From assembly GCA_964561135.1 (NCBI GenBank), contig CAZLOB010000038.1:6427-70426 (forward strand): a DNA stretch of 64,000 nt. Reading direction: 5' to 3'. Below the pieces are notes generated by a model. That model had not been told where the DNA came from, ran no database searches, and saw nothing but the letters and a program-made list of their open reading frames with translations. Position 1 is the first letter of the stretch, and every line of letters begins with the position of its first letter. This DNA is from an uncultured Elusimicrobia bacterium. GTDB lineage: Bacteria; Elusimicrobiota; Endomicrobiia; DTEH01. The position numbers and the translations under genes are program-made. This document shows, piece after piece, positions 32,193 to 47,000 of the stretch.

Positions 32193-35100
32193 TTATTTTT
32201 TAATAACAACTTGTTTTTTAGTAACAACATATTTCTTTCCTGACATTTCTTCAACTATAATTTTGCAAACATATACACCACTACCAACTTTTTGTTTTGC
32301 TTGGTTATCACATAACCATTCATATTGTTTATTTTCACCAGCAGAAGGATCAAGTTCTTCTTCTTTTACAAGTTCACCTAAAATGTTATAAATTCTTAAA
32401 GTAACTTTTTTTGCTGGATTTAATAATGAATATCTTAAAGTCACTTTACCAATTGAAGATGGATTAGGAAAAGTATACACACTATCTTTAAAAACTTCCT
32501 CTGCTGTAATAATATTTATGAAAAATTTCGATATATAAGTTGGCGAGGTGTTACCTGCGTTATCAACCAATGTTATATTTATTCTATATTCTCCATTAAT
32601 ATTCTGCTCGGGAAATGATAACAAAATAAGATAAGTAGTTGCGCTAATCTGTGTTAGTGATTTTATTGTTGAAACTTCTTTACCATCGGGACGATAAAGT
32701 CTAACATTTTGTGCTGAAAGATTTACTCCTGAACCACCTGTTTCTGTAAAAATTATTTGAATAGAACTAACTGCAACAGTAAATTTAGCGCCATCTTGTG
32801 GCCAAACAGATATAACTATTGGTGATGAAGTATCAGTTGCATATAGCTCTTGTAATTTCTTAAAGTTCACAGTAACAGAGGAAACAAGTGTGAGATCAAA
32901 ATCTATAACTTTTGCAAAAAAAGTCCTTGTTCCAGGTATGTTGCCAGTGTATACTGCTTTCACTTGACCATTAACATCTGTATAACTTGATAAAATAATA
33001 AACATATCATCTTGTGGTTTACTATCAACATATATTAAAACTTGTTTTTGTCCGATAGAAGGTATAGATGAAGAAATGATATTTCCGTATTGATCTTTAA
33101 GTGTCACCGTTATAATCACAGAACTTCCTATTAAAACATCATACGCAGTTGATTCTATTGTTGAGACAGTAGGTGACGGTTTCCCAGCAATAAGATCACT
33201 ACCTGGTAAAAACATAACAGCTGCTGTCGATAAAATTGTTTGGTTATCTGTTATATTATAAGCAGTGATAAATTTTAATTCTGCTTTTGTAGATGACAAC
33301 GTAGCAAAAGTTTGTCCTAAACTATTTGTTTTATCCTGTGGTTGAATAATTATATTCTGGGAACCAGTTACTGAAATTGACGCATCTTTATTAGCAACGG
33401 GTTGATTTGCAACATCTTTTAATGTTATAACAACATTTATTGTTGAACCAACAACAGCTTCATAATATTTTGTATAACTATCAATAATAGTCACACTTGA
33501 GAAAAATACACTTACTGCCCTTGTTATCCAAAACGTTTGTGATGCAGATTGTAATCCAGGATAAAAAACTGTAATGTTTTGTACGCCTGCTTCATTATCT
33601 CTGTATCTAAAACGCGCTTCTCCTAACACCATATTTACAGAATTACCTATCTCTACATTCGCTGTTGAACTTATAAAAGCATAATCTGAAGATGTTGTCT
33701 CTAAATAAACAATTCCTTCAATATCAACATCTTTATTTCCTTTTTCATCCTGTGCTTGGACAATAATTATTTGTGATGAAGACCCAGTAAGCAATTCCTG
33801 CCCAGCAGTAATAAATACAAGTTTTGTTGCAATAATATTATCAACTTGGAAACTCCCTGTTTGAACTGTTAAACCTACACCGTCTTCATCTTCAGGTGTA
33901 ATACGTATAGCTGTGGACACATCTTTATTGGGAAGGTCTTTTGTTGAATCCCAAATGAATGTATGTTCTTCACCTGATAAAGAAGCAAGTAAGTTTTCTG
34001 TTGGTTCTGAAGCGATCCATCTTGTAGCTGGTTTCCAATTACCATCTGTATCACGAAATTCTACTTTTATTTTACAATAATTATACGGCTCAGGTTTATC
34101 ATCTTCATCTATCAACCAATACTTTATTGTTACCAACCCTGTTTGTTCAGTAGATGGTGTTTCAATGACAACTTTTGGTGGTGTCCCTCTTACAACAAAT
34201 GTCTTAATTTCTGTGGCTTGTCCTGACGCTTCGTTTATTGATAAAACTACTGGTAAAGAAGTAGAATATATGTTATATGAATACGTTGCAATAGTTATAC
34301 TATATGGATTTTCAGCATAGAACCTATATTTTATTCTACCACCACTCCTACCAATACTACCAAACGGATAATTTATATTACTTAACACAAAATGGTATAT
34401 CTCACCATTAGTATAATCGCCATCATTACCCACACCTACTTTAAGTTGCATACCAAATTGTTCTGTTGTTTGGAATATAAGGTCATCGTTCAAATCAACC
34501 CATACTTGGACAGTAGTCGGCGGGTTACCATTACTTGCTAACCCAAGGTCAAAATATTTCACCTGAAATTCAACAGAACCAAATCTATCTATATAATTTG
34601 GTTCAACACCATCATCTACAAAACCACTAAAACCGCTATATACAATAGTAGGATCCCAATAAATTATGCTGTTAACCAAATCATCAGGTAAAAATGGTCT
34701 TGTATAATCTCTAAATGTTAAAACAGAATTTTTTGCACGAACATTAAAACATGCAGAAATTGTTGCTGTGTTTGTGTCAAGAACAATATTATCAAAAGTA
34801 TGTATGATATTGTTTGCAGTAATAAATGTAGTATATGTGGTAGCGGGTTGCAAGTTAGCAATATAAATTTTGTTTGTATTATTGAGTGGTGAACTATTAA
34901 ATGTGAGACCATTTGAATTTAAGAAAGTGAAACTTGTATATTCAATTTTAGTAATAGTTCCACCTAATGATAGTCCGTAATAAAAAAATTCTGTTCCAGA
35001 AACTATGTCATAACTTTTATCTTCAGCAAGTTTTCGCGTTACAATAGTAGGGGCTGCAGGATGACCAACAAATTCTATTGTTGCACCATCTTTGTTTTCA

Positions 35101-37475
35101 AAACATGCCCCAATATAATTGGGGTCTGAAAAATCGCATAAGTTAACTATTTTTTGTACATTTTTATCTTTTGATTCCGCGATTGTTACAAAAACATACT
35201 GTTCTCCTGGTGATATAGGTGATGCTCTATGTGTTAACCTAAACTTAACTTCTCCATTATCACTTATATAATCCTCATCATGAGTTAACAACCTTGACTG
35301 TACACCTGATTTTGTTCCATAAACTTGCCATTTATCTCCATCAGGTCCGTAACCATAACTTACAATCCATACTTCTGATTTTGTTGTAGAACTTGTTGTA
35401 ACAGATGTTATATCATTTGTCCCACCAGGGCCATCAACACCACCATCGTCGTAACGTAACATTGGTGTGTCATAAGAAAACAGTATAGTATTCCACCCAT
35501 GTGATTTTGTTTCATAAAGTTGATCTAAATAATTAAATTTTAACATATTTGAGGTATGCCAAGCATGAGCCGCTTGCGGCATTGAAAATTGTCCCCAGAT
35601 TCTTGTAAGACCCGGAATTCTATCATGATTTTGACTTATAACCCAAGAATTTTCTTTTGTAAATTCTTGTTTATATGGTGTATTGGCAAATTCTGTTGCA
35701 GAACCTAAGAAACAATTTTTCAACCATATTTGTGAAACATATCCTGTATTTTCTTCACCTTCTATATAAATATCACCACATTTGTTATCACTATAGTATT
35801 CATCAACACATAAATTGTCTATTGATGAATGTGACGCAAAACCATAACCTACATCATAACCAACATCGCCAGCATTACCAGTAGACACGTTCATCACAAA
35901 AATATTACCGTCAGAACCATATCTTACACGTATACCACCAACCTTGTTTGACCAACACTTGTTTGCACCTACATAGTTATATTTTGAACTTGACTCCAAA
36001 GCAATACCATACACACGATTGTTAAAACATTCATTGTTTATAATTACATTTTTGTTTGACCTAATTAGCGAAATACCTTCTTCTGCAAGTTGGTTATATA
36101 CTTTGTTTGAAGCAACTAAGTTTTTGTTAGAATCTTCAAAATATATCCCACGGATTTTGTTGTTATAAATCTCGTTGTATGAAATTTCGTTTTCAGAAGA
36201 ATTATCAAATCTTATCCCATATCCAACATTGCCACCTATATTTGAATAAATTTTGTTATTTCTTATATCTGACTTTTCTGTATTTTTAAACCACACACCA
36301 GCACGAACACAACTTCTTATTATATTTGATACTATCCCTTGAGAATACCACCAACGATTTATTCTTTTACAATTCTTAAACAATATCCCTGTATCAGGTG
36401 AAGAAGAAATGTCACAATTATAAAATTTTATATAATCTTTTGTACCATCAATAGGAGCACCAACACCAATGAAAACTATCCCATACAATTCATATCCTTC
36501 TGGTGTCGTTGTATCCCACAATCCTGTATGATGAACAACCACATTTTCCATTCTCATACCTACAGATGTTTCTTTATTTCGCTTCAAAGTTAAAATATAA
36601 TCAGCACTAATACTTATTGTCCTTTTAACAAATTCAGGATCAGGTTTGTCATGATTTGCCGGATTAGGATCGATTCCTACAATTTCCATATACCCTAAAT
36701 TTGTAGCGGCACCTAAATACAAATCTAATGTTGTATTGATAATTGGATTATAGAAATATATGTTTTTATTATTTTCTATTTCTTCAAAAATAAAACTACC
36801 CGGCGTGTTTATTAAAAGCATACCGTTGTTTATTAGCTTACCAGAACCATATACAGAAAAATTTACAATTGTAGATGAAACTACCTTAAATATACAATCT
36901 TTATCTATAGTAAGATTTAAAGTGTTAATAACAACATTTGAGTTTAAAGAATTACTACCAAAAACAACTTCAAACTTTGACCCATTATACTCATTTTTTG
37001 CAAGTTCTATATCTGAAAAGATGTTGATATCTACCCTTACATCTGATGTATCTATATTGATTACAAAATCGTTATTTTCTACCAACTTAAGCTTTTGGCA
37101 GGAAAGGTAGAACTTATCGTTTTCATTAGATGAATTTATTATTATTTGAGCAGCATTCCCACAATATATATCACCACTTATTGTTAAAGTGCTTCCTGTA
37201 ACACCATCAGAAACAAATCTTAATGTAGCATATTTATCTAAAGTTAATGATGCTGCAGAACATATTGCAGTAGTATCAATTATAATTATAAATCCTTGTG
37301 AAATTACAACATCATCACCTACTGTAGGAATAGTCCCGCTATCCCAAGTATTAGGTGAATTCCATAAAAGTGGTACTCCAGCTGTTCCCGTAGAAGTTAT
37401 AACTGCTGTATACCCTATTGAAGAAAATAATATGTAAAAAAGTAAAAAAGATATGAATAACTTTGTTTCTTTCAC
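32193..37475 (-). CDS. Giant (1760 aa) cell-surface protein: right-handed beta-helix (PbH1) repeats plus multiple Ig-like domains plus T9SS C-terminal sorting domain
   Basis: Signal peptide MKETKLFISFLLFYILFSSIGYTAV. Beta-helix repeats (NNKIYSNIGGNVGYGIRFDNSSENEISYNEIYNNKIRGIYFEDSNKNLVASNKVYN...). C-terminal CTD (KVTLRIYNILGELVKEEELDPSAGENKQYEWLCDNQAKQKVGSGVYVCKIIVEE...). Confidence 0.7.
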   Translation of the reverse strand: MKETKLFISFLLFYILFSSIGYTAVITSTGTAGVPLLWNSPNTWDSGTIPTVGDDVVISQGFIIIIDTTAICSAASLTLDKYATLRFVSDGVTGSTLTISGDIYCGNAAQIIINSSNENDKFYLSCQKLKLVENNDFVINIDTSDVRVDINIFSDIELAKNEYNGSKFEVVFGSNSLNSNVVINTLNLTIDKDCIFKVVSSTIVNFSVYGSGKLINNGMLLINTPGSFIFEEIENNKNIYFYNPIINTTLDLYLGAATNLGYMEIVGIDPNPANHDKPDPEFVKRTISISADYILTLKRNKETSVGMRMENVVVHHTGLWDTTTPEGYELYGIVFIGVGAPIDGTKDYIKFYNCDISSSPDTGILFKNCKRINRWWYSQGIVSNIIRSCVRAGVWFKNTEKSDIRNNKIYSNIGGNVGYGIRFDNSSENEISYNEIYNNKIRGIYFEDSNKNLVASNKVYNQLAEEGISLIRSNKNVIINNECFNNRVYGIALESSSKYNYVGANKCWSNKVGGIRVRYGSDGNIFVMNVSTGNAGDVGYDVGYGFASHSSIDNLCVDEYYSDNKCGDIYIEGEENTGYVSQIWLKNCFLGSATEFANTPYKQEFTKENSWVISQNHDRIPGLTRIWGQFSMPQAAHAWHTSNMLKFNYLDQLYETKSHGWNTILFSYDTPMLRYDDGGVDGPGGTNDITSVTTSSTTKSEVWIVSYGYGPDGDKWQVYGTKSGVQSRLLTHDEDYISDNGEVKFRLTHRASPISPGEQYVFVTIAESKDKNVQKIVNLCDFSDPNYIGACFENKDGATIEFVGHPAAPTIVTRKLAEDKSYDIVSGTEFFYYGLSLGGTITKIEYTSFTFLNSNGLTFNSSPLNNTNKIYIANLQPATTYTTFITANNIIHTFDNIVLDTNTATISACFNVRAKNSVLTFRDYTRPFLPDDLVNSIIYWDPTIVYSGFSGFVDDGVEPNYIDRFGSVEFQVKYFDLGLASNGNPPTTVQVWVDLNDDLIFQTTEQFGMQLKVGVGNDGDYTNGEIYHFVLSNINYPFGSIGRSGGRIKYRFYAENPYSITIATYSYNIYSTSLPVVLSINEASGQATEIKTFVVRGTPPKVVIETPSTEQTGLVTIKYWLIDEDDKPEPYNYCKIKVEFRDTDGNWKPATRWIASEPTENLLASLSGEEHTFIWDSTKDLPNKDVSTAIRITPEDEDGVGLTVQTGSFQVDNIIATKLVFITAGQELLTGSSSQIIIVQAQDEKGNKDVDIEGIVYLETTSSDYAFISSTANVEIGNSVNMVLGEARFRYRDNEAGVQNITVFYPGLQSASQTFWITRAVSVFFSSVTIIDSYTKYYEAVVGSTINVVITLKDVANQPVANKDASISVTGSQNIIIQPQDKTNSLGQTFATLSSTKAELKFITAYNITDNQTILSTAAVMFLPGSDLIAGKPSPTVSTIESTAYDVLIGSSVIITVTLKDQYGNIISSSIPSIGQKQVLIYVDSKPQDDMFIILSSYTDVNGQVKAVYTGNIPGTRTFFAKVIDFDLTLVSSVTVNFKKLQELYATDTSSPIVISVWPQDGAKFTVAVSSIQIIFTETGGSGVNLSAQNVRLYRPDGKEVSTIKSLTQISATTYLILLSFPEQNINGEYRINITLVDNAGNTSPTYISKFFINIITAEEVFKDSVYTFPNPSSIGKVTLRYSLLNPAKKVTLRIYNILGELVKEEELDPSAGENKQYEWLCDNQAKQKVGSGVYVCKIIVEEMSGKKYVVTKKQVVIKK

Positions 37476-37577: not shown

Positions 37578-37817
37578 TTATTTTTTACCTTTTTTCCCTT
37601 TACGTGCCATTTTTGCTCTTGATATATCACCATTTTTATCTATAAAATAAAGATAACCATCTTCTTTTTTTACACCAACTTTTGCTACTTTTTGTGGTTT
37701 ACCAGCTTTTTTTCTACCGCGAGCCATCTTCACTCTTGATACATCACCATCTTTATCCACATAGTACAAATATCCTTCTTCTTTTTTTACACCAACTTTT
37801 GCTACTTTTTCCGCCAT
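37578..37817 (-). CDS. Small basic protein consisting of two tandem ~37-aa repeats (unknown family; possible nucleic-acid-binding)
   Basis: MAEKVAKVGVKKEEGYLYYVDKDGDVSRVKMARGRKKAGKPQ | KVAKVGVKKEDGYLYFIDKNGDISRAKMARKGKKGKK. The duplication is also visible at the nucleotide level (shared ccatcttctttttttacaccaacttttgctactttttg). Lys-rich tails. Confidence 0.5.
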   Translation of the reverse strand: MAEKVAKVGVKKEEGYLYYVDKDGDVSRVKMARGRKKAGKPQKVAKVGVKKEDGYLYFIDKNGDISRAKMARKGKKGKK

Positions 37818-37853: not shown

Positions 37854-38978
37854 TTAAAGTTTGATTTCAGGATAAACAAAAATGTTGTCATTAAAATCTT
37901 TTATTATCACAGAATTTCTTGTTTTCGAAATTATAGTTGAAGGTTCAACAATAGATTTACTCATTTCTGTTGTATGAACAACAAGATTAGGTATTGCAAA
38001 CCAAGAAATTTGGCTTCTTAACTGTCTTATAATTTTTACCCCTACTGAAAAAGGTGTCCTAAAATGGGAAGTTCCTTCAACAATGTCACACTGTAATAAC
38101 TGATAAGGTCTTATTCTTAATCTTAAAAGTTTATTAAACAGCTCTGTTAAAATTTGAACTTTATCATTTATTCCTTTAAGCAAAACAGTGTTTGAAGAAA
38201 GTACAATACCATTCTCACAAAGTTGGTGACAAACATATTCAGTATAACTGTTTAACTCTTTTGGATGGTTTACCATGATGTTCAAATATATGGGTTGATA
38301 TTTTTTCAGAATATTACATAATTTAGATGTAATTCTTTGAGGCAGAACAATAGGTATTCTTGTTTCTATTCTAATAACAAATATATGTGAAATTTGTCTT
38401 AGATGTTTCAAAATATATTCTAATTTTTCGTCAGACAAAGTTAAAGGATCACCTCCTGAAAGTATTACATGATTAATTTCTTGATGTTGTTTAAGATATC
38501 TTAATACAAACTGAAATTCGTTATTTGTTATTTCATATTCTTCTTTTCCAACAAAATTTTTAAACGAGCAAAACCTACAATATGCAGCACAACGGTTTGT
38601 TAACAAAATTGTAATTCTGTCTGGATAAAAATGAATCACTTCTGGTGGTAGAAAAGGATTATTTTTTTTATTATCACTTTGTATTTTTTGAGTAGTCAAT
38701 TCTTCGGGCAAGATTTTTATTTCATTTATTGTAGGAATAAATTGTTTTCTTATAGGACAGTTAGGATCATTTTTGTCAATAATAGATAAAAGATAGTTTG
38801 TGACAGCAAATTTAAACTTGGTATGTAGAAGACCTCTTTGTTCTTCAATTGTAAGATTTATTTCGCGGATAAGTTTATGATAATCTGAAATTCTATTTTT
38901 AAGTTGTATAAACCAATTTAGTGAAAAACTTTGATGAACTTTTTGTAAACTAGTTTTGTAACTTGTTTCTAAACTCAT
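37854..38978 (-). CDS. KamA-family radical-SAM aminomutase (lysine 2,3-aminomutase-like)
   Basis: Radical SAM CxxxCxxC in the KamA arrangement (LLTNRCAAYCRFCSFKN) and the SGGDPL motif. Confidence 0.8.
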   Translation of the reverse strand: MSLETSYKTSLQKVHQSFSLNWFIQLKNRISDYHKLIREINLTIEEQRGLLHTKFKFAVTNYLLSIIDKNDPNCPIRKQFIPTINEIKILPEELTTQKIQSDNKKNNPFLPPEVIHFYPDRITILLTNRCAAYCRFCSFKNFVGKEEYEITNNEFQFVLRYLKQHQEINHVILSGGDPLTLSDEKLEYILKHLRQISHIFVIRIETRIPIVLPQRITSKLCNILKKYQPIYLNIMVNHPKELNSYTEYVCHQLCENGIVLSSNTVLLKGINDKVQILTELFNKLLRLRIRPYQLLQCDIVEGTSHFRTPFSVGVKIIRQLRSQISWFAIPNLVVHTTEMSKSIVEPSTIISKTRNSVIIKDFNDNIFVYPEIKL

Positions 38979-39215
38979 TTATTTTTTAAAAAATTTGTCT
39001 AACGAATATTGCAAATTTTCTCTTGTAATAAGATTTTCTTTAAGCCAACTGTCAATAACAGACTTTGAAAACCTGTACTGTCTACCAATTTTTGAAGCAG
39101 GAATTTTTTTTTCTCTAATAAGTTTATAAATTTTTGATTTACCAATGCCTAAATATTTTGAAAGTTCTTTTACATCCATTATTTCTTTAAATGTTGCAGA
39201 ATCATTTTGTTTCAT
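38979..39215 (-). CDS. Excisionase/MerR-superfamily helix-turn-helix (HTH_17-like) small DNA-binding protein
   Basis: VKELSKYLGIGKSKIYKLIREKKIPASKIGRQYRFSKSVIDSWL follows the HTH_17 pattern. Its stop abuts the kamA-like start (0-nt gap). Confidence 0.6.
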   Translation of the reverse strand: MKQNDSATFKEIMDVKELSKYLGIGKSKIYKLIREKKIPASKIGRQYRFSKSVIDSWLKENLITRENLQYSLDKFFKK

Positions 39216-39344
39216 AGTTTAAAAAATTTTTGATTTTATATTAGAAATTAAATTTTTATCTTTTTGTTATATTTACCAAATTTTATTTTCTTTTGTCAAT
39301 AGTTGCCAAAATTTTTTAAAAATTATTATCTTTTATACAAAAAT

Positions 39345-39992
39345 TTAGTAATATGTGTGTCTAATATATAATGGAACAAGTTGTTTATAATCTATGACTT
39401 CATATAAATTCTCATATTTGCTTAAAAACAGTTGTATAATTTGCTTTGATGAAAAGTTAAGCTTGACAAAAAGGTTTGCATTAATTTCAACAAAGTTAGG
39501 TATTATAAAAAAGTCAGCATTTTTAAAATTTATCTTGTTCTGTTTTACATATCCGTATTTTAATATTTTTTGTACCTTCTTGTTTTTTATTATATAATCA
39601 CAAAAATAAAACTCGTTTTTTACCGATGGAAACAAAATCGTTATTTTAGTAGTATCTTCAATTTCATATTTTTTAACAAATTCGTACAACAACATTGAAA
39701 ACGAAGTTGTTGTAACAATTTTTACTTTTAAATATTTTGCCAACAATTTAATGAAACTAAGTCCTATTCGTAATCCAGTAAAACTTCCAGGACCAACATT
39801 AACTGCTAATAAATTTAAATCGTCTAAAGAAAGTTTTGATTTGTTCAATATTTTATCTAAAATTTTCGTTAAATTTTCAGAATGGTCTAACGAATTTTTT
39901 GAAAAACAAAAAATCTTGCCATTTTTGTATACAGCCATTGAAAGAAGATGTGTTGAAGTATCTACTGCAAGAATTGTATTTCTAACTTTCAT
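39345..39992 (-). CDS. tsaB: tRNA t6A37 biosynthesis protein TsaB (YeaZ)
   Basis: ILAVDTSTHLLSMAVYKNGKI and VNVGPGSFTGLRIGLSFIK. Confidence 0.75.
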   Translation of the reverse strand: MKVRNTILAVDTSTHLLSMAVYKNGKIFCFSKNSLDHSENLTKILDKILNKSKLSLDDLNLLAVNVGPGSFTGLRIGLSFIKLLAKYLKVKIVTTTSFSMLLYEFVKKYEIEDTTKITILFPSVKNEFYFCDYIIKNKKVQKILKYGYVKQNKINFKNADFFIIPNFVEINANLFVKLNFSSKQIIQLFLSKYENLYEVIDYKQLVPLYIRHTYY

Positions 39993-40455
39993 TTACAATA
40001 ATTTCTCTTTTTGAAGAAGAAACTATTTTCAAGTTAATTTTAACTATTTTTGAATTTTTGATATTTCTCAACAAAGATTCTGTTTTGAAAGAAATTTTGT
40101 TCGCCCATTCAAAACAAAATACTTGGTTTCTTTTTTCCAAATCAACATTTTCTATTAGATCATAAATTATGTCTCTAACAAATTTTTTTTCAATACGGTA
40201 AAAATCAATATGAAAAAGTTTATTTTTTTTATTAATGATTTCTGTGACATACAAAAAGGTTGGACTTTTAATTTGTCTTTCATTAAAACCAAGCCCTTTT
40301 GCTATACCTTTAACAAACTCTGTTTTCCCGCTTCCTAAATTTCCGTATAATAAAAAAAATAAAACTTTGTTATTTTTAAGATAAGACTTTAAGATTTTGT
40401 TTGCAACGATATGTGTTTGTACAGTAGAAGATGTAATATAATGCATTCTATTCAA
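39982..40455 (-). CDS. tsaE: tRNA t6A37 biosynthesis ATPase TsaE (YjeE)
   Basis: LYGNLGSGKTEFVKGIAKGLG P-loop; overlaps the tsaB start by 11 nt. Confidence 0.8.
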   Translation of the reverse strand: MNRMHYITSSTVQTHIVANKILKSYLKNNKVLFFLLYGNLGSGKTEFVKGIAKGLGFNERQIKSPTFLYVTEIINKKNKLFHIDFYRIEKKFVRDIIYDLIENVDLEKRNQVFCFEWANKISFKTESLLRNIKNSKIVKINLKIVSSSKREIIVNES

Positions 40456-40699
40456 TCACTTTATATACGACATCTCCTTTGCGACAACGTTGTTCAACTT
40501 TGATCCCTACGGAATCACCTTTTTTTGCAACATCAACTTGTTTATGTTCCATCTGCATTGAATCTACTGTTTGTACAAAATCAGTTGTATGTCCTATTAT
40601 ATGAATTTTATCTCCTACTTTGAGTTCTCCTTCAAGTTTCACTGCTATAACAGAAATTTTTGCATAATAATCTTCAACTACACCTATCCTTTCTTCCAT
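40448..40699 (-). CDS. Small beta-barrel protein resembling EF-Tu domain 2
   Basis: 83 aa. VGDKIHIIGHTTDFVQTVDSMQMEHKQVDVAKKGDSVGIKV...KGDVVYKV follows the EF-Tu domain-II pattern. Confidence 0.3.
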   Translation of the reverse strand: MEERIGVVEDYYAKISVIAVKLEGELKVGDKIHIIGHTTDFVQTVDSMQMEHKQVDVAKKGDSVGIKVEQRCRKGDVVYKVIE

Positions 40700-40735
40700 A
40701 AATTTTGTTCACCTCCTTTTTAGTAGAACAATTTT

Positions 40736-41344
40736 TTAAGTAATTTTTACTAAAATATCACTTATAATATTTGCGGCTTCGTCAGCACGGTCAGCTGCGT
40801 TTGACAGATGTCTATATACTTCTCTTGTTTTTAAAATTTTTTTAATATCATCTGACTCAAACAATTTAGCAAGTGCTTCACGATATTTATGTTCAACAAA
40901 ATTTTCTGTTTTCTTTGCACGAACAATATGTTCAGCACAAACGGCCGGATGCGATTTTATACATTTTAACGCTAAAACAATTTCTTTTGCAGCATTGTTT
41001 ATTGCTTCCACCATTTCTTTCATATACTCATCTGCTTCTATTTTAAACAACATCATTTCTTCAACAGTACTTTTTGCATAATCAACAATATCGTCAATTG
41101 CACGTGATAGCGCAAAAATATCTTCTCTATCAAAAGGTGTAATAAACGCACGGTTCAAATCGTCAATAATAATACGTCTTAATTCATCTGCTTCTTCTTC
41201 AGCTTTAGCAACTTTTTTCATATTTTCATCATTTATATTATTTAAGAACTCTAACAAATACTCAGTCCCCTGTTGAACTTTTTCTGCTTGTTGTATCAGC
41301 ATACCTAAAAAATCTTTACTTTTAGGAAACAAATTTATCCCCAT
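40736..41344 (-). CDS. DUF47/PhoU-like (YkaA, TIGR00153) protein
   Basis: Start at MGINLFPKSKDF with an AAGGAGA SD 7 nt upstream. ITPFDREDIFALSRAIDDIVDYAKS is the DUF47 signature. Confidence 0.65.
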   Translation of the reverse strand: MGINLFPKSKDFLGMLIQQAEKVQQGTEYLLEFLNNINDENMKKVAKAEEEADELRRIIIDDLNRAFITPFDREDIFALSRAIDDIVDYAKSTVEEMMLFKIEADEYMKEMVEAINNAAKEIVLALKCIKSHPAVCAEHIVRAKKTENFVEHKYREALAKLFESDDIKKILKTREVYRHLSNAADRADEAANIISDILVKIT

Positions 41345-41379
41345 TTTGTTTCTCCTTTTTATCACAATACAACTTATTT

Positions 41380-42648
41380 TTATAAACTCCCAGGTTCTAC
41401 GAAACCTGCTTCTTTTATATCTAAAGATAGTTTTAGAGAACCAAACTGAATTATTTTAATGTTCTTATTTAAATTTTCCTTTGGTATATATATATAAATC
41501 TTTCTATTCGCAAAATCAATTTTTTCAATTATACCTAAACTAATAACCTCATGTGTTTCGTCTAACAATGCTACCATGACTTCGTTAAAATTGTTTTTTA
41601 TTACATTCTTAATTTTTTTAACACCATAAATTTTTTTTATTTCTTCTATTTCTTTTTGGTTTAAAAATTTTTCAGAAACAACATATAAACCTTCAACCCC
41701 TGACAGTTTTTCTATCCACAAAACATTGGATGATATTTCTTTTTGTATTTGAAGTTGTTCTCCTGTAAGAAAATACACGCGGTCTGTTTTTATATCATCA
41801 AAATTAAACATAATCTTTTCAAGTTGTGAAAAATATTTTTTATAAACAAACTCGCGTAACTTCTTTCGTTCTTCAGCAGAAGTAGGTGTTACTTTTTTTG
41901 ACACAGTAAGTTTTATAACCTTATCTTTTGGTAAGGTTGTAACTAAATGTTCAACTTCGTTTTTCCTTTGAAGAAGAACCACAGCAAAGTTTGTACCTAA
42001 AGCTCTTAAAAGTTCTATTTCTGAATTTCTTAATATCCTTCCACCATCACCTAAAACCCATCCTGGCGTATCTATAATTATAATATCAGAATTTTCAATA
42101 CCGTATTTGACCAGCTTTGTAAATCCACATAAATAATATAGAAAATGTTCTGATGGAGAATGAGAACCCACAAAATAAAGTTTTTGTGGTTCAACTTCAG
42201 TCATAAAAAGGACTGGTTTTTTAATTATCGCAACTCCTAATGTGGAAGGAGGACCTATATCTGACTGTCCTGTGTCACAGTCTAAAACTGACGGAATTAA
42301 ATTTTTTGCTAAAAGTTTGTTCACTATATACGTAGTGAGAAATGTCTTACCAGTGTCAACTTCACCAAAAATTATCATTGAATTAATTTTCTTGGATATC
42401 AAATAATCAACAACTTTATCCCAATCTTCAGGTATGGTTCTTGCTTGCAATTTCTCAACTAAATCTAAATTTTCAATTTCAAACACTGCTTCCGTATGTA
42501 CTTCAATAGGTATTCTCTTCCCTGTAGGAATAAAAATTTCTTCATTTTGAAATTTTTTACCAATTGCTTCAACCTCTCCTGAGACAATTTTTATTCTGTT
42601 TGGACCAGAAACTAAATATAGACCTTTTTGAAAAACTTCTCTCTTCAT
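41380..42648 (-). CDS. Clp1/Grc3-like P-loop NTPase (COG1341-type polynucleotide kinase-like)
   Basis: N-terminal beta domain; Walker A FGEVDTGKTFLTTYI; Walker B-like IIIIDTPGWV; C-terminal domain. The layout resembles archaeal/eukaryotic Clp1. Confidence 0.45.
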   Translation of the reverse strand: MKREVFQKGLYLVSGPNRIKIVSGEVEAIGKKFQNEEIFIPTGKRIPIEVHTEAVFEIENLDLVEKLQARTIPEDWDKVVDYLISKKINSMIIFGEVDTGKTFLTTYIVNKLLAKNLIPSVLDCDTGQSDIGPPSTLGVAIIKKPVLFMTEVEPQKLYFVGSHSPSEHFLYYLCGFTKLVKYGIENSDIIIIDTPGWVLGDGGRILRNSEIELLRALGTNFAVVLLQRKNEVEHLVTTLPKDKVIKLTVSKKVTPTSAEERKKLREFVYKKYFSQLEKIMFNFDDIKTDRVYFLTGEQLQIQKEISSNVLWIEKLSGVEGLYVVSEKFLNQKEIEEIKKIYGVKKIKNVIKNNFNEVMVALLDETHEVISLGIIEKIDFANRKIYIYIPKENLNKNIKIIQFGSLKLSLDIKEAGFVEPGSL

Positions 42649-42661
42649 TTTTTAAAACTTA

Positions 42662-43060
42662 TTATTTTTTAAACCTTAACGAAGGCAAAAGTTTATAAAG
42701 GATATCTTTTTCAATTTTATAGATTTTCTGTTTATTATTGATGCGAAGTTTTAATTTTTTACTATTAGACATAACTTTAACATTTCTCAAATATATGTTA
42801 TTTTTATCAATCTTTTCAACAACTGCTTCATAGGTGTTAATTTTATCTTTTACAATTACATGGTCTCCTTTTTTTATCTCACTAACTTCTTGTTCCTTTA
42901 TTAAATTTTCTAAACACATGTTCACAATACCAATATAAATAGGTACTTTTTTATATAAATTATAAGCTTGTTCCACGATTTCTTCAGCAGGTATCCCTTT
43001 TTTGATATAATTAACCAAAATCTCTAACATTTGTGGAAATTCAGATTCTTTATATGTCAT
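42662..43060 (-). CDS. Hypothetical protein (132 aa)
   Basis: Intact ORF, co-directional with downstream genes; no recognizable motif. Confidence 0.3.
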   Translation of the reverse strand: MTYKESEFPQMLEILVNYIKKGIPAEEIVEQAYNLYKKVPIYIGIVNMCLENLIKEQEVSEIKKGDHVIVKDKINTYEAVVEKIDKNNIYLRNVKVMSNSKKLKLRINNKQKIYKIEKDILYKLLPSLRFKK

Positions 43061-43099
43061 AACTTTTTTAAATCTTCAATGCTAAACTTAAAAATATGA

Positions 43100-43916
43100 T
43101 CCAAATCAATATTTCATACGTTCATATAAATTTTCTAATAGGAGGATATTTAATATCTCTCACTATTTGTGTTAATTTATAACATTACAGAACTATCTTT
43201 AACAAATTCCATTATTTTTTATATATTTTTATCCCATCTCCAATTCTTTTCGCAGCAAACTATATCGTATGATAAACTTCCTGTGATTCCCTTGCTTTAC
43301 TAGCATGACATATAATGGACATTCTGTATTCTTTCGCATATTCAAAAAATTTTTTAAACAAAGCAACACTATATTTTGACTCATCTCCAACTAAATCTAT
43401 CCCCTACAACACTGTCACCAAAATATTTCTCAGCAATTTTCGTTGTTTTCCAATTTTGTTTTTTCAATAATTGTGTACCTATATAGACACAAAATTATTC
43501 CAACTTTTTCAGCAAACTTTTTTCTCAGTATTTGACACCGGTAAGAACATTTCTAACAACATCTATCTTTTTCTGAAGAATTCTATTTGTTTGCAAAGTT
43601 AAAGCGAAACTTATTTCTAAATACTTAATATTTTTTCTCTGCTGCCTTTTCACAAACTTCTTAACTTACACGTTCTAACACACCTGGAAATTTTATTATA
43701 TCATAAAAAAGTCAAAAGTTTTAAGAAACTCTATAAGTGATTTACATTTTGTGATACTTGAACATATTCACGAAGTTTATCAACATAGTATGTTGGCAGT
43801 TTAAAATTATGTTTTATAGCTGACTCAAAAATCGTCTCAACTCGGGCAGAATCATCTAAATATTTATGTAGGTCAATTTTTGGTAGTAATGATATAATTT
43901 CCTTTTTTATACTCAT
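43100..43916 (-). pseudogene. add: Degraded adenosine deaminase (add) pseudogene
   Basis: Minus-strand N-terminal fragment MSIKKEIISLLPKIDLHKYLDDSARVETIFESAIKHNFKLP aligns to the ADA N-terminus (LPKxDLHxHLDGSxRxxT), but HxH has become HKY and DG has become DD. It is followed by a stop. Downstream, in other frames, remnants IDLVGDESKYSVALFKKFFEYAKEYRMSIICHAS (the GDE...HAGE block) and FAAKRIGDGIKI (RIGHG changed to RIGDG) are interrupted by stops and frameshifts. Confidence 0.5.
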
Positions 43917-44005
43917 AATAGGTGGGGGCAAAATTATACAAAATAAAAAATTAATTGTCAAGAAGAGTAAAAAAGTCAAAAGTTGAAGGTTAAAAGTTTT
44001 TTTCT

Positions 44006-44031
44006 GTAGCCGACCCTTAAGGGTCGGCTAC
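44006..44031. terminator. GC-rich perfect hairpin (11-bp stem, 4-nt loop) downstream of carB; terminator-like
   Basis: GTAGCCGACCC-TTAA-GGGTCGGCTAC. On the plus strand it is flanked by a 5' TTTTTTT run and a 3' U-rich TATAATTCTGCTATAATTCT. On the carB (minus) strand the 3' side is A-rich, so strand assignment is ambiguous. Confidence 0.35.
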
Positions 44032-44060
44032 TATAATTCTGCTATAATTCTACTATATAT

Positions 44061-47000
44061 CTACATATTTGTTTGGAACCATTTTTGTAATGGAAGGACA
44101 TCGAAATTTATCTTTTGTTTTTGCTCATTATAATTTTTTCTTAGTTCTTTAATAGATTCAACGACAGATTTTGCTGCTTCTAATGTTGTGATTACAGGAA
44201 TATTATTAACAGTAGCAGTTCTACGGATAAGGAAACCGTCTGAAAAAGATTTTCCTTTACCTGTAGGCGTGTTTATCACAAGTTGTACTTCATGGTTGGA
44301 AATTATATCAACTATATTTGGCCTTCCTTCGGAAAGTTTGTTTATTTTTTGACATTGGATACCATGTTTTGTAAAAAATTCGGCAGTACCTGAAGTAGCG
44401 ATAAGTTTAAAACCTAAATTAAAAAGTTCTTTTGCTATTTTTAAAGCTTTTGGTTTATCTTTATTATTTAAACTAAACAATATTTTACCGTTTAGTGGAA
44501 TGTTGCTGTTAGCAGCAAATTGTGATTTTGCATAGGCTAAAGGAAATGTTTTGTCAATACCCATAACTTCGCCAGTGGAACGCATCTCAGGTGATAAAAC
44601 TATATCTACATCAGCAAATTTTTGAAATGGTAAAACAACTTCTTTTACAGTGTAATATTTAAGGTTGAAAACTTTGTCTTGTGAAAAATTATATTTTTTT
44701 AATAAATCTTTAATCTTATGTCCCAACATTACTTTTGTAGCAACTTTTGCAATAGGTAATCCTACTGATTTTGAAACATAGGGCACAGTTCTTGAAGCAC
44801 GTGGGTTAACTTCTAATACATATATAACACCATCTTTGATTGCTAACTGTAAATTCATCAATCCCTTTACTTTTAACTCTTTTGATAGAACCTTTACATA
44901 TTTACATATTGTTTGTATTTGTTGACTTGTTAATGAAACTGGTGGTATCACGCACGCACTATCTCCAGAATGTACACCTGCAGCTTCAATATGTTCCATA
45001 ATACCTGCAATAAAAACTTCATCAATATCACATACTGCATCTACATCAAGTTCAATAGCTTCTTCTAAAAACCGATCAATTATTACAACATTTGAAACGT
45101 CTTTTGTTAACGAAGTTTCAAAAAGCTCTGATAAATACTCTTTTAAAGAATCTTCATCGTATATAACTTCCATTGCCCGTCCACCTAAAACATATGAAGG
45201 TCTTACAATAACAGGATATCCAATTTTTTGAACAATCATTAATGCTTCTTTATAACTTCTTGCATAACCATGTTCAGGATAAGGCAACTTAAGTTTCTTT
45301 AACACTTTTGCAAAAAGTTCTCTATCTTCAGCTAAAGCAATACTTTCAGGCTGTGTACCTAAAACTTTTACACCATAATCTTTTAATTTTTTTGATATAT
45401 TTAGTGGTGTTTGTCCTCCAAATTGTAACATGACACCTAAAAGTTTAGTTCTTGTCTTTTTAGCTATCTCTTCTTCTGTTTTATATACATTATATACATC
45501 TTCAAAAGTGATCGGTTCAAAATAAAGTTTGTCTGCTGTATCATAATCAGTTGATACTGTTTCAGGATTACAGTTAATCATAATCGCTTCATACCCTTCT
45601 TCTTTTATAGCCATAACAGCGTGAACACAACAATAATCAAATTCAATCCCTTGACCTATACGATTAGGTCCCGAACCTAAAACTATTACTTTGTCTTTAT
45701 TTTTATGATACTCTATTGATTCATTGAAGCAATGTATTAATTCTTCTTTATCAGATAAAGAATATTCTTCTCTATATAAAACACCGTCATATGTTGAATA
45801 AAAATATGGGGTATACGACTCAAACTCTGCTGCACAAGTGTCTACTACTTTATAATTCGGGAACAAATTGTTTTTTATTCTAAATTTGGCAATTCTATCT
45901 TCAGTAGTTTTAATCAAGTTTGCAATATGTCTATCTGAAAACCCAAAACTTTTTGCTTTAACTAAAACTTTAGTAAATTCTTTATTCTTTTTTTTGTTTT
46001 TTAAACTTTTAATCTCTTTTTCCAATTCGATAATTTCTTTAATTTGATATATAAACCATTTATCTATTTTTGAAAGTTCAAATATTTCTTCGGGTGTTTT
46101 ATTCAACATTAAGGCATATTTGATGTTAAAAATTCTGTCACAATTCGGGTTTCTTAATTTATATTCAATATTCTTAAGTATCTCTTGTTTTTTTTCTTCA
46201 GGTAAACTATCAAATTGTTCAATAAAATTTTCTGTATCTAAACCACTCCTTCCAATTTCTAACCCACGTAAAGCTTTCTGCAATGCTTCTTTAAATGTTC
46301 GTCCAATTGCCATTACTTCCCCAATAGATTTCATCTGTGAACCTAAAATTTGATAAGAATAGTCTTTTTTACCATCTTTTGAAACAGGCCTAAACTTTTC
46401 AAAAGCAAACTTCGGAATTTTTACAACAACATAATCTATTGTTGGTTCAAAACATGCAGGAGTTTTTTTAGTTATATCATTAGGAATTTCATCTAAAGTA
46501 TATCCAACAGCTAAAAGAGCAGCTATTTTCGCAATAGGGAAACCAGTTGCTTTTGACGCCAAAGCTGAAGATCTTGACACACGCGGATTCATCTCTATTA
46601 TAACGATCCTGCCTGTTTTAGGATTAACAGCAAACTGTATGTTTGACCCGCCAGTTTCAACTCCTACTGCACGAATACACTTAAACGCCATATCACGCAT
46701 CCTCTGATATTCTTTATCAGTTAATGTTTGTGCTGGAGCAACAGTTATTGAATCCCCTGTATGTACTCCCATTGGATCAAAATTTTCTATAGTGCAGACT
46801 ACAACACAGTTGTCTTTACAATCACGCATTACTTCAAGCTCATATTCTTTCCATCCATCAAGATATTCTTCAATAAGTATCTCTGAAATCATTGACGATT
46901 GTAACGCATTTTTTGCTGCTTCAACAAATTCTTCTTCATTAAAAACAATTTTTGAACCTGTCCCACCTAAAGTAAACGAAGGACGTATTATCAAAGGAAA

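What the first reader, a model, noticed from the sequence alone, without database searches (positions are those of the whole stretch)
39345..42648. Clp1-like polynucleotide-kinase-type P-loop protein in an operon with DUF47, an EF-Tu-domain-2-like mini-protein and tsaE-tsaB
The 422-aa protein has the three-part Clp1/Grc3 layout: an N-terminal beta domain, a GxxxxGKT P-loop and a DTPGW Walker-B-like box. That is an RNA 5'-kinase family mostly known from eukaryotes and archaea. It is followed, co-directionally and with tiny gaps, by a DUF47/PhoU-like protein, an 83-aa EF-Tu domain-II-like barrel, and the t6A tRNA-modification genes tsaE and tsaB. This suggests an RNA/tRNA processing or repair context that has not been described for bacteria.
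Basis: partly seen in the sequence, partly recalled or inferred. Interest (0 to 1): 0.55.

Follow-up and report, generated by a model that had tools for sequence, protein, structure and literature searches.

The report
Bacterial Clp1-type kinase with hidden partner
The 422-aa protein is a real Clp1/Nol9-type polynucleotide 5'-kinase, a kind already reported in bacteria, but its conserved partner is an unnamed 132-aa protein just upstream (often with a RecJ-like nuclease), not the tRNA-modification genes downstream.

Summary

The proposed operon logic fails. In 80 related genomic loci, TsaE and the EF-Tu-domain-2 mini-protein are never adjacent, and DUF47 follows the kinase only in Endomicrobiia. 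The tsaE-tsaB junction appears only in the window and a 78%-identical relative, where the mini-gene is broken.

The conserved neighbour lies outside the reported coordinates. It is a 132-aa protein (42662-43060) with no family assignment, directly upstream in 71 of 77 loci. A RecJ-like DHH phosphoesterase with intact catalytic motifs precedes it in 37 of 62 loci, including one contig with archaeal ribosomal genes. Surrounding genes are mostly nucleoside salvage and nuclease genes.

Best reading, from context only: the kinase phosphorylates 5'-OH ends so a 5'-phosphate-stimulated exonuclease can degrade them. Bacterial Clp1 kinases are published, so the kinase is not new. The three-domain form and its partner module appear undescribed.

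The parts
41380..42648 (-). Clp1/Nol9-type polynucleotide 5'-OH kinase, 422 aa. N-terminal beta domain is aa 1-88 (42385-42648). PNK domain is aa 89-275 (41824-42384). C-terminal domain is aa 276-422 (41383-41823).
42343..42366 (-). Walker A / P-loop, GEVDTGKT (aa 95-102)
   Evidence: Translation. G95, D98, G100 and K101 are invariant in 81 relatives.
42265..42282 (-). Walker B region, DCDTGQ (aa 123-128)
   Evidence: Translation. D123, D125, G127 and Q128 are invariant. Aligns with ELDVGQ of C. elegans and human Clp1.
42058..42069 (-). Clasp motif, TPGW (aa 194-197).
   Evidence: T194, G196 and W197 are invariant. Aligns with NTCGW of C. elegans and human Clp1. Motif definition from PMC6777427.
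41839..41868 (-). Lid segment, RKKLREFVYK (aa 261-270)
   Evidence: R261, L264 and R265 are invariant. Aligned with the arginine-rich lid segment of C. elegans and human Clp1.
42662..43060 (-). 132-aa protein of an unnamed family. This is the conserved partner of the kinase. It has three N-terminal helices, an SH3/Sm-like beta barrel and a C-terminal WPSLxF tail (L at the Trp position in this window).
43060..43916 (-). Adenosine deaminase pseudogene. It is a remnant of the nucleoside-salvage block that flanks the kinase pair in relatives.
   Evidence: tblastn pieces in different frames cover residues 1-315 of intact homologues. The gene is intact in L082/L083 and fragmented in L081.
40736..41365 (-). 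DUF47/PhoU_div protein. It is a class-level (Endomicrobiia) neighbour of the kinase.
   Evidence: Pfam PhoU_div, E 2.7e-19. Directly downstream in L002, L003, L005, L079, L081-L083 only. Paired with a PiT transporter in L009. No PiT in the window.
40448..40699 (-). 83-aa stand-alone EF-Tu domain-2-like barrel. It is not part of the conserved kinase module.
   Evidence: GTP_EFTU_D2, E 4e-9. Best PDB sequence hit is Pbp11 (7anu), E 1e-4. Absent from 80 related loci. Split in L081.
39982..40455 (-). tsaE (t6A ATPase subunit). Its position here is lineage-specific.
   Evidence: TIGR00150, 70 bits against a cutoff of 60. Not near the kinase in any of 80 loci.
39345..39992 (-). tsaB (t6A dimerisation subunit). 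Its position here is lineage-specific.
   Evidence: TIGR03725, 109 bits against a cutoff of 69. Adjacent only in the window and L081.

Best explanation
The 422-aa protein is a catalytically intact, three-domain Clp1/Nol9-type polynucleotide 5'-hydroxyl kinase. Its functional unit is not the DUF47 / EF-Tu-D2 / tsaE / tsaB string. It is a two-gene pair with the 132-aa helical plus Sm-like-barrel protein encoded immediately upstream. In most other lineages this pair extends to a three-gene module headed by a RecJ-like DHH phosphoesterase.

Inferred mechanism: the kinase uses ATP to convert 5'-OH ends of RNA or DNA fragments into 5'-phosphate ends. The small protein acts as a non-catalytic nucleic-acid-binding or adaptor subunit. 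The 5'-phosphorylated ends are then degraded by a 5'-phosphate-stimulated exonuclease of the RecJ/NrnA type. This feeds nucleotide and nucleoside (and phosphate) salvage.

In this Endomicrobiia lineage the block is eroded. The adenosine deaminase gene is a pseudogene and no DHH gene lies nearby. tsaE-tsaB were brought next to the block by a recent rearrangement.

Shown: family membership, motif conservation, fold and neighbourhood statistics. Inferred: kinase activity, the partner's role, coupling to the nuclease and the physiological purpose.
For: Identity:
- CLP1_P, E 2.3e-34.
- The four kinase motifs are invariant in 81 relatives.
- Foldseek TM 0.66-0.70.
- Prokaryotic Clp1 enzymes are demonstrated 5'-kinases that prefer RNA but also act on DNA (PMC6777427 and PMC10598085).

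Module:
- orf132 is directly upstream in 71/77 loci. These loci carry source labels of Elusimicrobiota, Caldiserica, Riflebacteria, Hydrogenedentota, Lindowbacteria, Mcinerneyibacteriota, Melainabacteria and Hadarchaeota. Flanking genes differ between groups.
- The reverse look-ups from two divergent orf132 proteins both land next to CLP1_P. One is on a contig with archaeal ribosomal genes S3Ae and S15.
- One 456-aa protein fuses the orf132 N-terminus to CLP1_P.
- DHH is directly upstream of orf132 in 37/62 loci. DHH motifs I-IV and GGGH are invariant in 40 members. Its best matches are archaeal RecJ profiles and M. jannaschii RecJ2.

Mechanistic plausibility:
- A 5'-phosphate promotes M. jannaschii RecJ1.
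- RecJ2 shows 5' exonuclease activity only on 5'-phosphorylated substrates (PMC5615345).

Context:
- Neighbours include MTAP/PNP, adenosine and cytidine deaminases, a dNK-like kinase, a HAD hydrolase of the TIGR02253 family, PLD/NucT-like and ComEC-type MBL nucleases, ComEA, NrdD, PiT-DUF47 and a canonical RecJ.
Against: - No biochemical or expression data exist for this clade.
- The window itself has no DHH gene within 64 kb. The coupling therefore cannot be shown for this genome.
- The polarity of the module's DHH enzyme is unknown. Its closest solved relative, M. jannaschii RecJ2, is mainly a 3'-5' exonuclease.
- Part of the salvage-gene context could be inherited synteny within related candidate phyla rather than functional linkage.
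- The tight spacing and start/stop overlaps with tsaE-tsaB in the window probably mean co-transcription here.
Confidence: 0.55

Rival explanations
1. The kinase works with DUF47, the EF-Tu-D2 barrel and TsaE/TsaB in a bacterial tRNA processing, repair or modification pathway.
For: - The genes are co-directional with gaps of 14 and 36 nt and overlaps of 8 and 11 nt. No terminator-like site lies between them.
- The same order occurs in a 78%-identical relative.
- The 83-aa protein's best solved relative is Pbp11, a tRNA-binding protein of Pyrococcus abyssi.
- Eukaryotic Clp1 associates with the tRNA splicing endonuclease (abstract listed).
Against: - TsaE and the mini-protein occur in 0 of 80 related loci. 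DUF47 is directly downstream in 4 of 68.
- At 66% identity the downstream genes are HAD, DUF3006 and MnmA.
- The mini-protein gene is split in the 78% relative.
- The Pbp11 match is far below the NCBIfam cutoff, 24 bits against 100.
- No tRNA gene, ligase or endonuclease lies nearby. The only tRNAs in the window are at 937 and 30927.
Confidence: 0.07
2. An RNA repair or rRNA/tRNA maturation kinase, a prokaryotic counterpart of Grc3/Nol9 or Clp1. It phosphorylates 5'-OH ends of cellular RNA. These ends are then either trimmed by the RecJ-like nuclease, as Rat1 follows Grc3 in ITS2 processing, or sealed by a ligase encoded elsewhere. The 132-aa protein would be the RNA-recruiting subunit.
For: - The three-domain fold is shared with Clp1, Grc3 and NOL9.
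- Sequence profiles favour NOL9-type N and C domains.
- On one archaeal-type contig the module sits between the ribosomal protein genes S15 and S3Ae.
- Prokaryotic Clp1 enzymes prefer RNA. Saito and co-workers suggest a pre-rRNA role for prokaryotic Clp1.
- The partner's barrel resembles Sm, RimP-C and PUA_4 barrels.
Against: - No ligase, HEPN or other endonuclease is found in any neighbourhood.
- orf132 has no conserved catalytic-type residues.
- Bacterial neighbourhoods are dominated by nucleoside-salvage and DNA-uptake or nuclease genes.
- The S15/S3Ae location is a single contig, and two DHH-family genes sit there next to the pair. My recollection, not checked here, is that archaeal RecJ genes commonly lie at that position, which would make the ribosomal context say little about function.
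Confidence: 0.28
3. A P-loop NTPase of the Clp1 fold that has lost kinase activity, as yeast Clp1 has, and serves only as a scaffold. Alternatively, it is a different P-loop family (MobB/ArgK/SIMIBI GTPase) that has been misassigned.
For: Yeast Clp1 is an inactive family member (PMC6777427). Weak secondary hits to CbiA, MobB and SRP54 appear in relatives.
Against: - All four kinase motifs are invariant across 81 sequences.
- CLP1_P is hit by 81 of 81 relatives, with E down to 4e-40. MobB is hit by 5 of 81 at E >= 0.019.
Confidence: 0.05

Closest known systems
Eukaryotic Clp1 (C. elegans Clp1, PDB 4ohv; human CLP1)
   Different: Only 15-18% sequence identity. No Pcf11, TSEN or CPSF partners. 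Instead it is encoded with a 132-aa helical plus Sm-like protein and often a RecJ-like DHH nuclease.
Nol9/Grc3 with Las1 (pre-rRNA ITS2 nuclease-kinase machine)
   Same: NOL9 gives the best sequence-level PDB hits (6e-10). Relatives hit the Cupin_NOL9 and NOL9_C profiles. The logic of a kinase encoded or assembled with a partner, followed by an exonuclease, is similar.
   Different: The partner is not a HEPN endonuclease. It has no Rx4-6H-type motif and no conserved catalytic residues. The associated nuclease is a DHH-family exonuclease rather than Rat1/Xrn2.
Characterised prokaryotic Clp1 enzymes (Thermus scotoductus Ts-Clp1; Pyrococcus Ph/Pf-Clp1)
   Same: Same CLP1_P kinase domain and motifs. 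They are demonstrated 5'-OH kinases on RNA and, less efficiently, on DNA.
   Different: Ts-Clp1 is described as lacking both N- and C-terminal domains, and Ph-Clp1 as lacking the N-terminal domain. This clade has both. No partner protein or neighbourhood was reported for those enzymes.
Bacterial Pnkp-Hen1 RNA repair system
   Same: A polynucleotide 5'-kinase encoded in an operon with a partner, acting on broken nucleic-acid ends.

Membership tests
Clp1/Nol9/Grc3 polynucleotide 5'-OH kinase family (Pfam CLP1_P, PF16575) | Profile match above the curated cutoff | tested here: met
   119.3 bits against a cutoff of 26.6, E 2.3e-34, covering profile positions 1-187 of 188. 81 of 81 relatives match.
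Clp1/Nol9/Grc3 polynucleotide 5'-OH kinase family | Walker A, GxxxxGK[S/T] | tested here: met
   G95-EVDTG-K101-T102. Invariant in 81 sequences.
Clp1/Nol9/Grc3 polynucleotide 5'-OH kinase family | Walker B, [D/E]hhQ | tested here: met
   D125-T-G-Q128, with D123 also invariant. Aligned to ELDVGQ of C. elegans and human Clp1. The two middle residues, T and G, are not hydrophobic, but the aligned VG of C. elegans and human Clp1 shares the G.
Clp1/Nol9/Grc3 polynucleotide 5'-OH kinase family | Clasp motif, [T/S/L]xGW | tested here: met
   T194-P-G-W197, invariant.
Clp1/Nol9/Grc3 polynucleotide 5'-OH kinase family | Lid motif (RxxxxR as given by Saito et al.) | tested here: inconclusive
   Invariant R261 and R265 (R-x3-R) are followed by K270 (R265-x4-K). 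They align with the arginine-rich lid segments of C. elegans and human Clp1. I could not map the exact residue equivalence. Ts-Clp1 also carries K at one lid position.
Clp1/Nol9/Grc3 polynucleotide 5'-OH kinase family | Three-domain fold (N beta domain, PNK domain, C domain) | tested here: met
Clp1/Nol9/Grc3 polynucleotide 5'-OH kinase family | ATP-dependent phosphorylation of 5'-OH polynucleotides | not testable with these tools
   Needs a biochemical assay. It has been shown for Ts-Clp1 and Pf/Ph-Clp1 only.
A conserved operon linking the kinase to t6A genes (TsaE/TsaB) | Adjacency conserved across relatives | tested here: not met
   0 of 80 loci have TsaE or the EF-Tu-D2 protein. The adjacency is seen only in the window and in L081.
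Las1-Grc3-type nuclease-kinase complex | HEPN endonuclease partner | tested here: not met
   The conserved partner orf132 has no family hit. Its fold is three helices plus an SH3/Sm-like barrel. Its only near-invariant residues are M1, T2, E7, P24, Y36, P40, Y42, G44, C49, G65, L121, W125, P126, L128 and F130.
Sm/LSm fold (for the 132-aa partner) | Sm-type beta barrel recognised by fold or profile | tested here: inconclusive
DUF47/PhoU_div with PiT phosphate transporter | DUF47 profile match, and an adjacent PiT (PHO4) gene | tested here: inconclusive
   The profile match is met: 69.8 bits against a cutoff of 24.4. No PHO4 homologue is found in the 64-kb window. PiT-DUF47 are adjacent in L009, two genes upstream of the kinase.

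The most novel reading that the evidence does not exclude
A compact module made of a RecJ-like DHH nuclease, a small Sm-like adaptor and a three-domain Clp1 kinase is shared by an archaeal lineage and at least seven bacterial (mostly candidate) phyla. In it, 5'-phosphorylation licenses exonucleolytic processing. This would be a prokaryotic counterpart, and possibly a forerunner, of the eukaryotic kinase-plus-exonuclease logic of Grc3/Nol9 followed by Rat1/Xrn2. It would also mean that the N- and C-terminal domains thought to be eukaryotic additions to Clp1 already existed in prokaryotes.
Probability: 0.35. Interest if true: 0.65.

Novelty: new variant of a known kind. Interest (0 to 1): 0.45.

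Why it matters
Clp1-family kinases are central to eukaryotic tRNA splicing, mRNA 3'-end formation and rRNA processing, yet their prokaryotic roles are unknown. Published surveys describe bacterial Clp1 as a bare kinase domain of unclear function.

This clade has the full three-domain architecture, a dedicated and previously unnamed partner protein, and a recurrent RecJ-like nuclease. It therefore offers a concrete, testable hypothesis: a kinase-licensed 5'-3' degradation or salvage pathway. It also bears on where the eukaryotic N- and C-terminal domains came from.

For annotation, the result shows that the apparent link to t6A genes in this window comes from local gene order and is not evidence of a pathway.

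Tried and rejected
- **Defence or phage link.** No relative of the kinase was found in the IMG/VR viral contigs. No PADLOC hit was found for the kinase, orf132, DUF47, the mini-protein or the DHH protein.
- **Promoter and terminator scan of 38800-44200.** Promoter-like sites were no more frequent than in shuffled sequence. The only minus-strand terminator-like site lies inside the kinase gene. The scan is not informative beyond showing no terminator between genes.
- **Family searches for orf132.** Pfam and NCBIfam gave nothing above threshold.
- **Fold search against afdb50.** The library was not available.
- **Literature.** A search for 'COG1341' found no papers. None of the ten papers listed for Clp1, RecJ and archaea contains both Clp1 and RecJ. 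Two searches failed on term syntax.
- **NrnA paper.** Its text did not state a 5'-phosphate requirement under the terms I searched. I relied on the M. jannaschii RecJ paper instead.
- **Clustering artefact.** My single-linkage clustering wrongly merged a HAD hydrolase into the 'CLP1' cluster. The apparent second Clp1 genes in L002, L005, L009-L011 and others are HAD hydrolases.
- **Cluster member names.** The exact window proteins carry no source names.
Full report
**1. Observation**

All genes of the finding lie on the minus strand. Reading 5' to 3' on that strand:
- a 132-aa ORF (42662-43060)
- the 422-aa protein (41380-42648)
- a DUF47 protein (40736-41365)
- an 83-aa protein (40448-40699)
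- TsaE (39982-40455)
- TsaB (39345-39992)

Profile searches confirm each label:
- 422-aa protein: CLP1_P, E 2.3e-34
- DUF47: PhoU_div, E 2.7e-19
- 83-aa protein: GTP_EFTU_D2, E 4e-9
- TsaE: TIGR00150, above cutoff
- TsaB: TIGR03725, above cutoff

Spacing between successive genes from the kinase to tsaB is +14, +36, -8 and -11 nt. No terminator-like site lies between them. The quoted sequence motifs are present.

**2. The 422-aa protein is a Clp1-family kinase with all three domains**

- PDB sequence hits are NOL9 (6e-10), C. elegans Clp1 (1e-5), human CLP1 and Grc3.
- In an alignment of 81 relatives at 37-93% identity, the following are invariant:
  - Walker A: G95, D98, G100, K101
  - Walker B: D123, D125, G127, Q128
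  - Clasp: T194, G196, W197
  - Lid: R261, L264, R265
- The motif definitions come from Saito et al..
- The AlphaFold2 model is confident: pLDDT 94.4, pTM 0.91.
- Some relatives hit N- and C-domain profiles at the sequence level: Cupin_NOL9 22 of 81, CLP1_N 10 of 81, NOL9_C 13 of 81.
- The MobB/ArgK alternative is excluded.

**3. What is already known**

- Saito et al. 2019 (PMC6777427) catalogued bacterial Clp1 proteins. They found them in 14 of 1,543 species.
- They showed that Thermus scotoductus Clp1 phosphorylates ssRNA and, less efficiently, ssDNA.
- NCBI names close relatives of the window protein 'Clp1/GlmU family protein'. JGI names them 'polynucleotide 5'-hydroxyl-kinase GRC3/NOL9'.
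- A bacterial Clp1 kinase is therefore not new.
- Those papers describe bacterial Clp1 as essentially a bare PNK domain. They treat the N- and C-terminal domains as eukaryotic acquisitions. They did note a class of prokaryotic proteins with a long N-terminus.
- The clade studied here clearly has all three domains.

**4. The proposed operon is not conserved**

I fetched 80 genomic loci encoding relatives. I searched their ORFs with the window proteins and clustered all ORFs.

- TsaE and the 83-aa protein are absent from all 80 loci.
- A TsaB/Kae1-like ORF occurs once, 5 kb away.
- DUF47 directly follows the kinase in 4 of 68 loci, all Endomicrobiia.
- A 78%-identical relative (L081) has the window's order, but its mini-protein gene is split into two frames.
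- A 66%-identical relative has, in order, the kinase, DUF47, HAD hydrolase, DUF3006 and MnmA.
- The link to tsaE-tsaB is therefore a recent, lineage-specific juxtaposition.
- The 83-aa protein is a genuine EF-Tu domain-2-like barrel. Its best solved relative is the tRNA-binding protein Pbp11. It travels with tsaE here, not with the kinase.

**5. The real conserved partner**

*The 132-aa ORF*
- It is found directly upstream, on the same strand and often with overlapping stop and start, in 71 of 77 loci.
- By their record titles, these loci come from Elusimicrobiota, Caldiserica, Riflebacteria/Ozemobacteraceae, Hydrogenedentota, Lindowbacteria, Mcinerneyibacteriota, Melainabacteria and Hadarchaeota.
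- Reverse look-ups from two divergent members again land next to CLP1_P. One is on a contig with the archaeal ribosomal genes S3Ae and S15.
- The family has no Pfam, NCBIfam or PADLOC model.
- The family is small, with 95 representatives among 1.84 billion proteins.
- One 456-aa member fuses its N-terminal helices to a CLP1_P protein. This could equally be an assembly or frameshift artefact.
- Its model (pLDDT 83) has three helices followed by a small beta barrel.
- Sub-threshold profile hits are to PUA_4, LSM, Tudor and RimP-C barrels.
- It has no conserved catalytic-type residues. I therefore read it as a binding or adaptor subunit.
- The window's copy carries L at the near-invariant Trp of the C-terminal WPSLxF tail.

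*The DHH protein*
- A 474-aa DHH/DHHA1 protein sits directly upstream of the small ORF in 37 of 62 loci, and within 6 kb in 49 of 80.
- Its catalytic motifs are invariant in 40 members: H49, D50, D51, D53; D104; D124-H125-H126; D179; G412-G-G-H415.
- Its best matches are archaeal RecJ profiles, M. jannaschii RecJ2 and TM1595.
- The window has no such gene.

**6. Wider context**

Neighbouring genes recur by group:
- Elusimicrobiota-like genomes: MTAP/PNP, adenosine deaminase, a dNK-like P-loop kinase, an AP_endo2 TIM-barrel protein, DUF3006 and PLD/NucT-like or ComEC-type MBL nucleases.
- Riflebacteria: ComEA, ComEC-type MBL, then the DHH gene, orf132 and the kinase, then NrdD.
- Another group: PiT, DUF47, PNP, MTAP, the kinase, HAD and PLD.
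- Lindowbacteria: pyrimidine nucleoside phosphorylase, RecJ, DUF3006, PNP, adenosine deaminase, cytidine deaminase, orf132 and the kinase.

The common theme is nucleic-acid breakdown and nucleoside or phosphate salvage.

In the window the adenosine deaminase gene upstream of the pair is a frameshifted pseudogene at 43060-43916.

**7. Mechanism**

Shown:
- a catalytically intact Clp1-type kinase
- a tightly linked small partner
- frequent linkage to an intact RecJ-like phosphoesterase

Inferred:
- The kinase converts 5'-OH ends to 5'-phosphate ends.
- The partner helps to bind substrate or to bridge the two enzymes.
- A 5'-phosphate-stimulated exonuclease then degrades the strand.

The inference is made plausible by M. 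jannaschii data. A 5'-phosphate promotes RecJ1. [quoted passage not shown]

The main rival is a role in rRNA or tRNA maturation or RNA repair, analogous to Grc3/Nol9 followed by Rat1. The evidence cannot exclude it. It shares the same kinase-then-exonuclease logic but differs in the substrate.

The inactive-scaffold and wrong-family readings are very unlikely.

**8. Verdict**

The kinase is a member of a known family, already reported in bacteria.

Three things appear new within the limits of the literature I could search:
- the three-domain architecture in bacteria
- the unnamed partner family
- the recurrent module of RecJ-like nuclease, small partner and kinase, shared with an archaeal lineage

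Interest is moderate. The mechanism rests on genomic context only. This particular genome carries an eroded version of the block.

Noticed in passing
window 43060-43916 (-): Adenosine deaminase pseudogene between carB and the 132-aa ORF. tblastn pieces in different reading frames cover most of intact homologues. The gene is also fragmented in the 78% relative L081 and intact at 66% identity (L082). This suggests ongoing gene decay in this Endomicrobiia lineage.
   Followed up: partly
window 43933-43961 (-): A perfect sigma-70 consensus (TTGACA, 17 nt spacer, TATAAT) lies just upstream of the adenosine deaminase pseudogene. It may drive transcription of the whole pseudogene, orf132, kinase and downstream string. 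Overall, promoter-like sites in the region were not enriched over shuffled sequence.
   Followed up: no
window 37578-37817 (-): A 79-aa, very basic protein made of two roughly 38-aa repeats (KVAKVGVKKE(E/D)GYLY(Y/F)(V/I)DK(D/N)GD(V/I)SR(V/A)KMAR). It has a strong Shine-Dalgarno sequence and no family hit.
   Followed up: no
window 37854-39215 (-): An excisionase-type HTH_17 protein of 78 aa abuts a KamA-family radical SAM aminomutase of 374 aa with zero gap. The HTH protein also hits PADLOC mad1 at 6.5e-10. In the 78% relative L081 the HTH gene is kept (92% identity) but the KamA gene is absent.
   Followed up: partly
window 32193-37475 (-): A 1760-aa predicted surface protein with an N-terminal signal-like segment, a repeat-rich region and a C-terminal sorting-type domain. 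Not analysed.
   Followed up: no
L081 8991-9235: In the 78%-identical relative the EF-Tu-domain-2 mini-protein gene is split into two frames (aa 1-34 and aa 38-83). It is either a pseudogene or an assembly error.
   Followed up: partly
P0257: A 456-aa protein joins the N-terminal helices of the 132-aa family to a CLP1_P kinase through a low-complexity linker that replaces the kinase's N-terminal domain. It is either a natural fusion or a frameshift or assembly artefact. I did not look up its contig.
   Followed up: partly
L085 3208-7681: On a contig with archaeal-type genes (S15, S3Ae, RIO1, LAGLIDADG), two tandem DHH proteins precede orf132 and the kinase. The module therefore lies between the ribosomal protein genes S15 and S3Ae.
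   Followed up: no
window 40736-41365 (-) compared with L081-L083: DUF47 is much better conserved than its neighbours: 88% and 81% identity, against 78% and 66% for the kinase and 74% and 57% for orf132. It stands alone without a PiT transporter in the window.
   Followed up: partly
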